A DNA stretch of 64,000 bases from a virus. Its lineage: Duplodnaviria; Caudoviricetes. Shown here in pieces: positions 15,670 to 38,504 of the stretch. The notes below the pieces were generated by a model. It had not been told where the DNA came from. It did not search any database and saw only the letters and a program-made list of their open reading frames with translations. Positions within the stretch are counted from its first letter, which is position 1. Each line of letters begins with the position of its first letter. Location: positions 30,963 through 94,962 of the IMG/VR virus record IMGVR_UViG_3300025924_000020. One strand, 5' to 3'. A program made the position numbers and the translations under genes.

Positions 15670-15754
15670 TGAGCTTCGGGCTGGACTCGAACCAGCAATC
15701 TCCGTATAGGATAAGCCTACACTACATGGTATTTTACCATTAAACTACCTAAGC
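15670..15754 (-). tRNA. tRNA-like RNA with an aberrant, extended anticodon arm (pseudo-tRNA; identity undetermined)
   Basis: GCTTAGG/CCGAAGC acceptor stem, D loop AATGGT, perfect T arm GCTGG-TTCGAGT-CCAGC; 28-nt anticodon arm. Confidence 0.65.
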
Positions 15755-35979: not shown

Positions 35980-36441
35980 CTACTTCTTAACGAAGTCCAA
36001 GATATCTTTCAATGCTCCATACTCTGGATTAACAAAACCCATTATAATGGTATCTAGACTAAGTAATGTTCCAATAGATAGTATCACAGCTAAAACAGTG
36101 AAGCCTATTCCTAGTATAAGGTTATAAGTCCCTTTAGTTATGTCTCCGTAATCAGTCCAAACAACTAATTTTATCTGTTTGTAGGCTATCAGGAAGCTGA
36201 TAATAGCAATGATACCTATAACTAACCAAACAAATGAATTAACTACTTGCTGTTTCACCATTACAGTATAAACATGTTCAGCTCCTACTTTAAGGGCTTT
36301 ACCCAATCCTTGCAATGCATCTTTAACATCACTATAGATCTTCTCTTTAGTTAGCTTAACGCTATCTTGTTTTTGTGCATAAGCACAGTTTGCAACACCA
36401 ATTCCTAGAATTAATATTGCTGTTATAATTAATCTTTTCAT
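35980..36441 (-). CDS. Membrane protein (signal peptide + 2 TM, NPEY motif)
   Basis: Hydrophobicity pattern; coupled to the lysin gene. Confidence 0.7.
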   Translation of the reverse strand: MKRLIITAILILGIGVANCAYAQKQDSVKLTKEKIYSDVKDALQGLGKALKVGAEHVYTVMVKQQVVNSFVWLVIGIIAIISFLIAYKQIKLVVWTDYGDITKGTYNLILGIGFTVLAVILSIGTLLSLDTIIMGFVNPEYGALKDILDFVKK

Positions 36442-37088
36442 ACTTTTACTCGTTTAATCCAATGATTCAGAAATATGATCTGACTTGATTTTCTATCTAC
36501 AATATTAGTGTAGAAATCAATCCTGTTATTCATCAGTTTTACTAAGAACTCCCACTTGTTTACTTTATTGAGTTGTTCTATAGTTTGTGAGTTGATACAA
36601 TTGGTTATTTCAACTGTATAACCCATTTGACATAGCGTTGTCTGCACTATAGCAGCACCAACTGTACCATTAATTCTAAAGTCCAATACATAGTTAGCTA
36701 TATCTTGATCTTTTAGATTCATAAAGTCTTCTTTAACCCAAATGGTTAGGTAGTAGTCTAATACATAATGATATAACATAGGATCTGGGATACTGTCGTT
36801 CCACTTGATTCTATTATGTCTTTTGTATTCATCTACATATTTCCATCCTAACCACTCTGAGTTGAACCTTCTTGCAATACCTCTATATGTTTCTTGACCA
36901 TAATCATTTGGGTGATGTACCCAGAATCCTTCATGATCTAAGACATATTTGAGAGCTATTCTAAAATCTGCCCGCTGTGGTTGTAACACCACCTTTACTT
37001 GAATTGTCTCCTTTGTCGCCTTTCCACATTGTAAGGAAGATAAGACCAACAATAATGACACACATAACTTCCGCCATAGTTTCTTCAT
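36438..37088 (-). CDS. Glycoside hydrolase family 108 lysozyme with an N-terminal signal
   Basis: HEG..HPNDYGQETYRGI catalytic pattern; C-terminal FLNHWIKR. Confidence 0.88.
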   Translation of the reverse strand: MKKLWRKLCVSLLLVLSSLQCGKATKETIQVKVVLQPQRADFRIALKYVLDHEGFWVHHPNDYGQETYRGIARRFNSEWLGWKYVDEYKRHNRIKWNDSIPDPMLYHYVLDYYLTIWVKEDFMNLKDQDIANYVLDFRINGTVGAAIVQTTLCQMGYTVEITNCINSQTIEQLNKVNKWEFLVKLMNNRIDFYTNIVDRKSSQIIFLNHWIKRVKV

Positions 37089-37111
37089 TTTTAAAATTTA
37101 GGTAAAACATA

Positions 37112-37533
37112 AGATACACCCTAACCGAGAACATTAGCGGTTAGTATCTACCTACTCTCCCTTAGATACAAGGAATATCGTGGGCGTATCTGTTCCTCAC
37201 TGTATGCTAAGAATTCCTCTTAGTCAGATATTGGCATATGTTGTAATAGGGACAACATTAACCCTATAATTTTTAATGGCTGGAGCAGTACGCTGTCGTC
37301 TAGTTAACTGGATTTTACACACTTATAACGCCTATATTACCTCTCTATCACAGAGTATGCGTAGGGAACCAGCACCACCAAAATGTCTTATCCCAGAACT
37401 TTCGAACATTCTGGGGACTTCTTTAATTATGACTTCCGTAACCTAGTATCTAGAAGTTAATAGGACTTGTTAGTTGTTAATGGCCCTAGAACGCACACAA
37501 CATGTATAGTTTCCTAATTCATAAAAATTAAAG
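37112..37533 (-). ncRNA. Cluster of putative stem-closed structured RNA modules
   Basis: Closing stems agatacaccc/gggcgtatct (37112-37191), tggctggagc/gcaccacca (~37277-37381), ctttaatt/aattaaag (37421-37533); no ORF. Confidence 0.45.
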
Positions 37534-37549
37534 CAAGATTTTTAAATAG

Positions 37550-37634
37550 TAGCGGGGATAGGACTCGAACCTATGAGGTCTTTCGACACAAGCTTATGAG
37601 GCTTGACTGCTACCAGCTACAGGGCTACCCCGCG
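37550..37634 (-). tRNA. tRNA-Met (CAT), initiator-like acceptor stem, long variable arm
   Basis: CGCGGGG/CCCCGCT, anticodon arm CAAGC-CTCATAA-GCTTG, T arm ATAGG-TTCGAGT-CCTAT; CCA not encoded. Confidence 0.85.
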
Positions 37635-37639
37635 ATGAA

Positions 37640-37817
37640 AGATCAAATCTATATTAACACCGTACAAATAGGTGTGTTATAGTTTCATTGTTAATTACTT
37701 CTTCTATCACTTGATCCGCTAAGACCAATGTTAACAATAATAGCTGCTACAGCGTACCATGTTAATTGGCTAAATGACGCTTCTATAATCAGTGTCTCTG
37801 ATAATCAGATTTGATCT
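37640..37817 (-). ncRNA. Putative structured RNA module
   Basis: Perfect 11-bp closing inverted repeat agatcaaatct/agatttgatct with internal hairpins. Confidence 0.45.
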
Positions 37818-37917
37818 AATTTCTTTTGATAAATTTCTTCTAATCTATGATCTTTACCAGCAAGCAAAAGAATAAAAAATGCTGATATGTACAATAATAA
37901 CCTCTTAAAGAACTTTC

Positions 37918-38148
37918 TCATGATTCTAGAGTTTCTTGTATGTATTTGGCAAACGGTGTTGCTATAAATCTCTCATCAAATTTGATGGTGCCATCACTGG
38001 CTTCTTCGAACTTACTAACTTTAACTGGTTCCAATAGATTACCAGTTACTTTATCTCTAATTGAATAGACTATCATCTTTGTTGTAAATGATAATCGTTT
38101 GATGAACATATCAGAGTGCTGTAGTTGTACTTTAAATAAATGTATCAT
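37918..38148 (-). CDS. Hypothetical protein
   Basis: 76 aa ORF. Confidence 0.55.
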   Translation of the reverse strand: MIHLFKVQLQHSDMFIKRLSFTTKMIVYSIRDKVTGNLLEPVKVSKFEEASDGTIKFDERFIATPFAKYIQETLES

Positions 38149-38504
38149 CGTTTCAAGTCTTTAAGCTTCTTTGGAGATAAATGTAATAGCTCTATCTTCT
38201 CTACACCCTCTCGCCAAGGTATAATTATTTCTGTTCGTTCTGGTATTATGCAGATTATACCTTTTATGCCATGATATGAAATAAGATAAGTAGCTCTGAG
38301 ATGATCAACTTGCTTATATTGTTTACTCCATATGTAATGAGAATGTACAGTAGATTCTTGTAATTTGTACTCAATCTTCCATTTAGTGTAATAGAAATCC
38401 CAAATATAAAACTCTATCGAGTCTTGTTGAATCATTACATAATTCCTAGCTGGGTGTATATCTCCATTCCATGCATATGCAGTAAACCAAATTAAGTATT
38501 TCAT
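38145..38504 (-). CDS. Hypothetical protein
   Basis: 119 aa ORF. Confidence 0.6.
   Translation of the reverse strand: MKYLIWFTAYAWNGDIHPARNYVMIQQDSIEFYIWDFYYTKWKIEYKLQESTVHSHYIWSKQYKQVDHLRATYLISYHGIKGIICIIPERTEIIIPWREGVEKIELLHLSPKKLKDLKR

What the first reader, a model, noticed from the sequence alone, without database searches (positions are those of the whole stretch)
37112..37817. Array of stem-closed structured RNA modules around tRNA-Met
Seen: ~700 nt without ORFs is largely tiled by units whose ends pair: 37112-37191, ~37277-37381, 37421-37533, the tRNA, and 37640-37817 (perfect 11-bp stem), mostly separated by short AT-rich spacers. The units share architecture but not sequence, so this is not a repeat or CRISPR array. 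Inference: a polycistronic small-RNA cassette processed like a tRNA operon, possibly decoys or antitoxin-like RNAs.
Basis: partly seen in the sequence, partly recalled or inferred. Interest (0 to 1): 0.72.

Follow-up and report, generated by a model that had tools for sequence, protein, structure and literature searches.

The report
Conserved structured RNAs before phage endolysin
In the gene-free stretch in front of this uncultured phage's cell-wall-lysis gene, an odd tRNA and two or three folded RNA elements are real, one of them a new ~180-base RNA family shared with two distant phages, while two of the five proposed modules look like chance folds.

Summary
The window is part of a 95-kb uncultured phage record. 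The ORF-poor tract 37089-37920 lies on the minus (gene) strand, directly upstream of the endolysin gene.

- **Module 5 (37638-37819, minus):** a genuine structured RNA, here called R1. Two distantly related phages carry it at the same place. 92.6% of cells are paired, and 22 of 50 pairs change on both sides, against 0-4 in slid controls. No Rfam family matches.
- **Module 1 (37108-37195):** conserved in one relative. It has two compensatory pairs and ends about 20 nt before the endolysin AUG in both phages.
- **An unlisted element (37238-37266):** a candidate H-type pseudoknot. All 11 pairs are kept in that relative and 3 are compensatory.
- **The tRNA(CAU):** real but aberrant.
- **Modules 2 and 3:** no homologues, and fold energies like shuffled sequence. 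The number of end-pairing stems in the tract is what chance gives.

So the "array" is only partly real. Its members are unrelated RNAs in a small-RNA/tRNA island, and more distant relatives hold tRNA arrays at the same site. Function is unknown: a co-transcribed, processed RNA cassette and a structured endolysin leader are both open. I found no support for decoy or antitoxin roles. Other agents in this scan reported other new structured RNAs in crAss-like phages on other DNA, but not this one.

The parts
37638..37819 (-). Helices in window coordinates: P1 37817-37808/37649-37640; P2 37805-02/37656-53; P3 37801-98/37792-89; P4 37788-83/37682-77; P5 37777-73/37689-85; P6 37770-67/37759-56; P7 37753-50/37746-43; P8a 37735-31/37694-90; P8b 37730-23/37716-09; P9 37675-71/37661-57, with a conserved 10-nt loop.
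   Evidence: Homologues at L003:5586-5769 and L011:5793-5970. RNAalifold gives 22 of 50 pairs with compensatory change. Pair counts with controls are, helix coordinates. No Rfam match.
37549..37634 (-). tRNA with anticodon CAU, 86 nt. It has a mismatched first acceptor pair, a 3-nt insert before the D stem and a long variable arm. It starts 5 nt after the 3' arm of R1's P1.
   Evidence: ARAGORN; Rfam RF00005 at 37.7 bits with alignment. Not found in IMG/VR by an exact 26-mer.
37421..37533 (.). An 8-bp A/T-only closing stem, 32% G+C.
   Evidence: z about 0 on both strands. No homologue in L003, L011 or the phage collections. Stems of this size are expected by chance.
37382..37420 (-). Stable local hairpin (7-8 bp, G+C-rich) between modules 3 and 2. 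It has no U-tract, so it is not a canonical terminator.
   Evidence: Seen in the folds. Not called by the terminator scan.
37277..37381 (.). G+C is raised (46%), and it coincides with a 56-aa plus-strand ORF (37276-37446) that has no known relatives.
   Evidence: z -0.3 / +1.0; G+C; ORF; no PHROG match; no homologue.
37238..37266 (-). S1 is 37266-62 with 37251-47; S2 is 37258-53 with 37243-38.
   Evidence: The same two interlocked helices occur in L003 (5797-5802/5811-16 and 5805-10/5821-26). 11 of 11 pairs are kept in both and 3 are compensatory. Only two sequences.
37108..37195 (-). Module 1 / model R2: a stem-closed three- to four-way junction RNA that ends 23 nt before the endolysin AUG. 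44% G+C.
   Evidence: Homologue at L003:5880-5970, which ends 19 nt before its endolysin AUG. Two compensatory pairs in the third hairpin; 94.9% of cells paired. z -2.2.
36438..37088 (-). Endolysin gene (GH108 plus peptidoglycan-binding domain), the conserved downstream neighbour of all these elements.
   Evidence: Pfam and PHROG. The N-terminus MKK is conserved in homologues.
37805..37921 (-). 38-aa hydrophobic ORF whose stop codon lies in the 5' arm of R1's P1. Its start overlaps the stop of the 76-aa ORF upstream (ATGA).
   Evidence: Only a weak PHROG hint.

Best explanation
The tract is the phage's small-RNA island, read from the minus strand in front of the endolysin gene. It holds unrelated RNA genes or elements rather than a family of similar modules.

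1. **R1:** a new ~180-nt RNA with a long closing helix, two multi-way junctions and conserved loops.
2. **An aberrant tRNA(CAU):** it starts 5 nt after R1.
3. **About 250 nt of phage-specific filler:** Their status is unknown and they are probably non-functional spacer or a recent insertion.
4. **A small pseudoknot and the stem-closed module 1:** together these form the structured leader just ahead of the endolysin start codon.

Most likely mechanism (inferred, not shown):
- The region is co-transcribed with the upstream small ORFs and the endolysin gene.
- In this phage, RNase P cleavage at the 5' end of the tRNA frees R1 as a discrete stable RNA that acts on its own.
- Module 1 and the pseudoknot stay on the endolysin mRNA as a 5' structure that affects its stability or translation.
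For: **Shown**
- R1 is conserved with heavy covariation in two phages whose endolysins are only 36-48% identical to this one.
- G-U pairs outnumber A-C mismatches 9 to 2 on the gene strand. This fits an RNA read from that strand.
- No ORF is conserved across the three copies. They differ by single-base indels, and nucleotide conservation runs past every stop codon.
- R1 always lies upstream of the endolysin, in the same orientation, but at 25, 223 and 552 nt from the AUG. This fits an independent gene better than a cis switch.
- Module 1 keeps a fixed 19-23 nt distance to the AUG in both phages that have it.
- More distant relatives have tRNA genes at this very site.
- The G009 relative has three tandem stem-closed units beside R1. 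Their closing stems covary between copies.

**Background from papers**
- T4 makes small RNAs of unknown function, RNAC and RNAD (PMC9697503).
- The crAss-like phage phi14:2 makes abundant non-coding RNAs of unknown function (bioRxiv 10.1101/2020.03.07.982082).
Against: - There are no expression data, so transcript ends, processing and stability are all inferred.
- Only three R1 copies, and two copies each of module 1 and the pseudoknot, could be found. The structures were derived from the same sequences on which the pairs were counted.
- L003 and L011 have no tRNA next to R1, so RNase P release cannot be the general way of making its 3' end.
- The constant position upstream of the endolysin also fits a cis-regulatory role.
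- No promoter or terminator could be assigned. Scan hits are no more frequent than in shuffles for the relatives. In the window the excess is modest: 12 found against 5.7 (sd 2.0) in shuffles.
Confidence: 0.5

Rival explanations
1. The whole tract, R1 included, is one long cis-acting leader of the endolysin mRNA. It would be a riboswitch-like or protein-binding regulator that sets the timing of lysis, and no separate small RNA would be made.
For: R1 lies upstream of the endolysin gene in the same orientation in 3 of 3 phages, even though the gene upstream of it differs. In L011 its closing helix ends 25 nt before the AUG. Module 1 ends 19-23 nt before the AUG in the other two. So each phage has a stem-closed domain just before the start codon. 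Another agent of this scan reported a structured endolysin leader in an unrelated phage (e1-5696736); I did not check it.
Against: The distance from R1 to the AUG varies from 25 to 552 nt, and a tRNA gene plus about 250 nt are inserted in between in this phage. No alternative expression-platform pairing was found. No known riboswitch class matches.
Confidence: 0.27
2. One reading: all five units are discrete small RNAs of one cassette, processed like a tRNA operon and acting as decoys or antitoxins.
For: Stem-closed shape of all units. The tRNA lies in the middle. The relative G009 has a true tandem array of stem-closed units. Module 2 has raised G+C.
Against: Modules 2 and 3 fold no better than shuffles and have no homologue anywhere searched. 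The number of closing stems equals chance. The tRNA model finds no tRNA-like remnant at E up to 10. No toxin gene or target complementarity was found.
Confidence: 0.1
3. The conserved blocks are DNA signals (promoters or protein-binding sites) or a small protein gene, not RNA structure.
For: A sigma-70-like -35/-10 pair (37765-37737, minus strand, 10 of 12 matches) overlaps the most conserved block of R1. One reading frame keeps a short similar peptide stretch in all three copies.
Against: The invariant bases lie mainly in what would be the promoter spacer. 22 pairs covary in nine helices spread over 180 nt. G-U pairs are strand-asymmetric. Single-base indels and non-conserved stop codons and starts rule out a shared ORF.
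Confidence: 0.06
4. Apart from the tRNA nothing is functional, and the apparent conservation reflects slow divergence of neutral DNA.
For: Only two or three sequences per element. Coding DNA of these phages is also 63-73% identical at the DNA level.
Against: Neutral DNA would not keep 92.6% pairing with 22 double changes when slid controls give 0-4. The rest of the spacer is not alignable between the same genomes.
Confidence: 0.04

Closest known systems
Phage T4 small RNAs RNAC and RNAD (species 1 and 2 RNAs of the T4 tRNA gene cluster)
   Same: Phage-encoded non-tRNA small RNAs of unknown function. PMC9697503 classes them as late RNAs of unknown function. That they sit in the tRNA cluster is my own knowledge.
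   Different: No sequence similarity to any GenBank phage, T4 included (blastn). R1 is larger and multi-branched. Processing and expression are untested here.
Abundant non-coding RNAs from intergenic regions of crAss-like Cellulophaga phage phi14:2 (bioRxiv 10.1101/2020.03.07.982082)
   Same: Non-coding RNAs of unknown function read from intergenic regions of an environmental crAss-like phage.
   Different: Those come from long early-region gaps (g004-g006). R1 is short, lies before the endolysin gene, and no similarity was detected.
Theta (minimal HDV-like) ribozymes next to phage tRNA genes (PMC10879173)
   Same: Small structured RNAs adjoining phage tRNAs, proposed to take part in tRNA processing.
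   Different: Theta ribozymes abut the tRNA 3' end with their cleavage-site G. Here the 3' flank of the tRNA is A/U-rich, and no HDV-like family matches at E up to 10. R1 lies 5' of the tRNA and is about three times larger.
Riboswitch-type structured mRNA leaders
   Same: A closing helix, multi-way junctions with conserved loops, and a position upstream of one conserved gene in the sense orientation.
   Different: No Rfam riboswitch matches. The distance from R1 to the start codon is not fixed. No ligand or expression platform is identifiable.
Large ornate phage-associated RNAs ROOL (RF03087) and GOLLD (RF01998)
   Same: Complex structured RNAs of unknown function carried by phages, sometimes near tRNAs (my own knowledge).
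   Different: These are several-fold larger, and the Rfam models give no match here.

Membership tests
Any Rfam 15 family (4227 models) | Covariance-model score at or near the gathering threshold | tested here: not met
   Only the tRNA passes. At E up to 10 nothing overlaps R1, module 1, the pseudoknot or modules 2 and 3. The L003 and L011 copies of R1 also give nothing.
tRNA (RF00005) | Cloverleaf with conserved D and T loops, scored by the tRNA model | tested here: met
   37550-37634 (minus) scores 37.7 bits against a cut-off of 29, though with inserts. The other four modules do not match even at E up to 10, and relaxed ARAGORN gives only spurious calls.
Theta / HDV-like ribozyme at a tRNA 3' end | Nested double-pseudoknot ribozyme starting with G directly after the tRNA 3' end | tested here: not met
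   The sequence after the tRNA is A/U-rich. No HDV-like family matches at E up to 10. The family is described in PMC10879173.
T4 RNAC/RNAD-type stable RNAs | Sequence homology to the T4 RNAs | tested here: not met
   No blastn match to any of 50,697 phage records.
T4 RNAC/RNAD-type stable RNAs | Co-transcription with tRNAs and release by tRNA-processing enzymes as a stable RNA | not testable with these tools
   Needs RNA data. The only support is that R1 ends 5 nt before the tRNA 5' end.
Riboswitch / cis-regulatory leader | Fixed position relative to the regulated start codon or a terminator (expression platform) | tested here: inconclusive
   R1 lies 25, 223 and 552 nt from the AUG, so it is not fixed. 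Module 1 lies 23 and 19 nt away, fixed in 2 of 2. No terminator was called.
   With filters off, models R1 and R2 find only themselves in 36900-38200. Each has one copy in the whole phage genome.

The most novel reading that the evidence does not exclude
R1, the aberrant tRNA(CAU), the pseudoknot and module 1, and perhaps modules 2 and 3, form a dedicated poly-RNA cassette. Its stem-closed members would be cut out by the host tRNA-processing enzymes and act in trans during late infection. For example, they could time lysis, or soak up host tRNA-targeting or RNA-binding defence proteins. This would be a phage 'operon' of non-coding effectors built on the tRNA-island chassis.
Probability: 0.12. 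Interest if true: 0.8.

Novelty: new variant of a known kind. Interest (0 to 1): 0.5.

Why it matters
- Phage tRNA islands are usually read as tRNA genes plus junk. Here the island also holds a well-supported new structured RNA and a structured leader in front of the lysis gene, in an uncultured phage lineage with no GenBank relatives.
- If R1 is a trans-acting RNA, or the leader controls endolysin expression, it would be an RNA-level handle on lysis timing in crAss-like phages. These phages appear rich in unexplained non-coding RNAs: phi14:2 makes abundant ones, and other agents of this scan reported several more.
- The result also shows that "ends pair" is not by itself evidence of an RNA module in A/T-rich DNA.

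Tried and rejected
- **Hidden ORF under a recoded stop:** rejected. A TGA read-through of the 38-aa ORF gives a second hydrophobic stretch in the window only. The frame is not conserved in L003 or L011.
- **Decayed tRNA genes as the origin of modules 1-3 and 5:** no tRNA-model match at E up to 10. Relaxed ARAGORN gives noise.
- **Thermodynamic evidence:** uninformative. Even the tRNA has z of only -1.4.
- **Searches for more R1 copies, all negative:**
  - two motif scans of IMG/VR plus a combined pattern, filtered with the model;
  - 45 whole related viral records;
  - GTDB genomes;
  - GenBank phages.
- **False positives of the models:** L227 (19 bits) and a group of large phages (about 21 bits for R2). 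Both lie inside long ORFs.
- the single metagenome scan used a pattern with one N too many, so it could not match the family. It found only chance hits and could not be repeated.
- The closest endolysin relatives (59%, 58% and 56% identity, from Logan and NCBI) could therefore not be inspected.
- **Host-type Bacteroidota promoter motif:** none in the tract.
- **Sigma-70-like hits:** not interpretable.
- **A promoter I thought I saw just 5' of R1 in L003:** it does not pass the scan and I dropped it.

Full report
**Setting.** The window is bases 30963-94962 of a 94,962-bp IMG/VR virus record rated complete.
- G+C is 35%.
- Recognisable genes include terminase, portal and major head protein, and DNA polymerase A and a helicase.
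- Another agent of this scan called the phage crAss-like (e1-5929428). I did not verify that label. The 2,090-aa ORF gave only a weak match to a family of unknown function.
- Genes from about 6.3 to 46 kb run on the minus strand. The finding therefore has to be read on that strand.
- In the 5'-to-3' sense the order is: a 76-aa ORF, a 38-aa hydrophobic ORF (37921-37805), the ORF-poor tract, then the endolysin gene (37088-36438; GH108 plus peptidoglycan-binding domain).

**Checking the observation.**
- The tRNA(CAU) is real but odd. It is 86 nt long, with a mismatched first acceptor pair, a 3-nt insert before the D stem and a stem-looped long variable arm.
- The pattern is not beyond chance. The tract has two perfect inverted repeats of 8 bp or more with 50-200 nt between the arms, against 1.64 expected from dinucleotide shuffles. 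59% of equal-sized pieces of the window do as well.
- Against shuffles, modules 2 and 3 fold no better (z between -0.3 and +1.0). Module 1 reaches about -2.2 and module 5 about -3, but their borders were chosen so that the ends pair.
- A sliding scan shows equally low z-scores in neighbouring coding DNA.
- No reading frame opens under a single stop reassignment.
- Rfam finds only the tRNA, even at E up to 10.

**Relatives.**
- No GenBank phage resembles the region at the DNA level. By protein, GenBank phages are all below 60% identity, and those covering most of the endolysin are at 24-34%.
- The closest endolysins in the large protein collection are 59%, 58% and 56% identical.
- An alignment-based scan of IMG/VR gave 80 loci.
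- Two of them share DNA-level similarity with the tract: L003 (contig IMGVR_UViG_3300020047_006415; endolysin 48% identical; syntenic over at least 13 kb) and L011 (IMGVR_UViG_3300049893_001613; 36%). The similarity is to module 5.

**R1 (module 5).**
- The three copies are window 37638-37819 (minus), L003 5586-5769 and L011 5793-5970. They align over their whole length.
- RNAalifold gives nine helices. 22 of 50 pairs have kept pairing through changes on both sides.
- On the same structure 92.6% of cells are standard pairs. Sliding the partners by 1-3 columns gives 27-39% paired and 0-4 double changes, and no column shuffle reaches the observed values.
- The caveat is that the structure was derived from these three sequences.
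- The long closing helix has a completely different sequence in each phage but pairs in all three. The P9 hairpin changes four of its five pairs while its 10-nt loop stays nearly constant.
- A further nested 5-bp helix (37735-31 with 37694-90) has one compensatory change in L011.
- G-U pairs (9 cells) outnumber A-C mismatches (2 cells) on the gene strand, so the RNA is read in the sense of the genes.
- No ORF is shared. The copies differ by single-base indels, stop codons fall at different places, and conservation continues past them.
- R1 is about as conserved at the DNA level (75%) as the best-conserved coding segments of these genomes (64-73%).
- No Rfam family matches any of the three copies.
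- A covariance model finds one copy per genome and none in the other 43 related viral records searched whole. It finds none in motif-selected IMG/VR or GTDB loci either.
- Two weak model hits lie inside long ORFs and are false.
- My one metagenome scan was wasted by a typing slip in the pattern.

**Other elements.**
- *Module 1 (37108-37195).* It has a clear homologue in L003 (5880-5970): a 10-bp closing stem, a conserved first hairpin, and a third hairpin with two compensatory pairs and a conserved loop. In both phages it ends about 20 nt before the endolysin AUG.
They recur in L003, where all 11 pairs are kept and three are compensatory.
- Both of these rest on two sequences only.
- *Window-specific DNA.* In L003, R1 and the pseudoknot are about 30 nt apart. 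In the window they are 370 nt apart. So the tRNA and about 250 nt (modules 3 and 2 and a hairpin) are specific to this phage.
- *Modules 2 and 3.* No homologue or paralogue was found. Module 2 has raised G+C (46%) and coincides with a 56-aa plus-strand ORF without relatives. Its status stays open, but nothing positive supports it.

**The locus in wider relatives.**
- More distant phages carry tRNA genes just upstream of the same endolysin gene: one in L008, eight in L010 and six in L012.
- In L011 the 430 nt before R1 hold a strong terminator-like hairpin followed by three head-to-tail units. Each starts with the same 10-nt motif, and their closing stems differ in sequence yet pair in each copy. 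One unit contains a T-loop-like box.
- The site is therefore a small-RNA island in this phage group.

**Mechanism.**
- What is shown: there are conserved RNA structures on the gene strand, and their positions are as described.
- What is inferred: they are co-transcribed, and R1 is released in this phage by RNase P cutting 5 nt downstream at the tRNA 5' end.
- The distance from R1 to the start codon varies (25, 223 and 552 nt). This argues that it is an independent RNA rather than a direct translational switch.
- The fixed distance of module 1 argues that it belongs to the endolysin mRNA leader.
- The rival reading, one long regulatory leader, remains quite possible.
- Promoter and terminator scans were uninformative.

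**Comparison with known systems.**
- The nearest analogues are the T4 small RNAs RNAC and RNAD, of unknown function (PMC9697503).
- The abundant non-coding RNAs of crAss-like phage phi14:2 are another (bioRxiv 10.1101/2020.03.07.982082).
- Theta ribozymes next to phage tRNAs (PMC10879173) do not fit.
- Other agents of this scan reported other new structured RNAs in crAss-like phages, and a structured endolysin leader, on other DNA. None overlaps this family.

**Verdict.**
- R1 is a new small family of structured phage RNA. Module 1 and the pseudoknot are probable structured leader elements. Modules 2 and 3 are unsupported.
- Interest is moderate. The RNA is well supported but rare, and its function is unknown.

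Noticed in passing
window 15671-15754 (minus): The second tRNA of the phage is also aberrant. Its anticodon arm is 24 nt where the model expects 13. ARAGORN reads it either as Thr(AGT) or as Asp with a 9-nt intron. Another agent of this scan has reported on this region (e1-5929431).
   Followed up: partly
L011 5363-5643 (relative IMGVR_UViG_3300049893_001613): Three head-to-tail stem-closed units of about 65, 140 and 78 nt. Each begins with the same 10-nt motif, and the closing stems covary between copies. The middle unit holds a T-loop-like box. They are specific to that record and give weak chance-level Rfam hits.
   Followed up: partly
L010 2851-5934; L012 538-4721; L008 5912-5985: tRNA arrays of 8, 6 and 1 genes lie directly upstream of the endolysin gene in more distant relatives. 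In L010 they include a tRNA with anticodon TTA, which reads the stop codon TAA, 67 nt before the endolysin start.
   Followed up: no
window 37737-37765 (minus): A sigma-70-like -35/-10 pair (10 of 12 matches) sits exactly on the most conserved block of R1. A transcript starting there would give the tRNA a leader of about 95 nt. The hexamers are only partly kept in L003 and L011, while the would-be spacer is invariant.
   Followed up: partly
window 37241-37446 (plus): An antisense sigma-70-like promoter (10 of 12 matches) ends 5 nt before the ATG of a 56-aa plus-strand ORF that covers module 2 and the hairpin. The ORF has no known relatives.
   Followed up: partly
window 37805-38148 (minus): The 76-aa and 38-aa ORFs overlap by ATGA, which suggests translational coupling. 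The 38-aa product is hydrophobic and, given its place before the endolysin, could be a holin-like protein. L003 has an unrelated 49-aa membrane ORF at the matching place.
   Followed up: no
L007 5776-6148; L008 6704-7119: ARAGORN calls 'tmRNA' genes just downstream of the endolysin genes of two relatives. In L007 the call overlaps a 154-aa minus-strand ORF. They are probably false positives.
   Followed up: no
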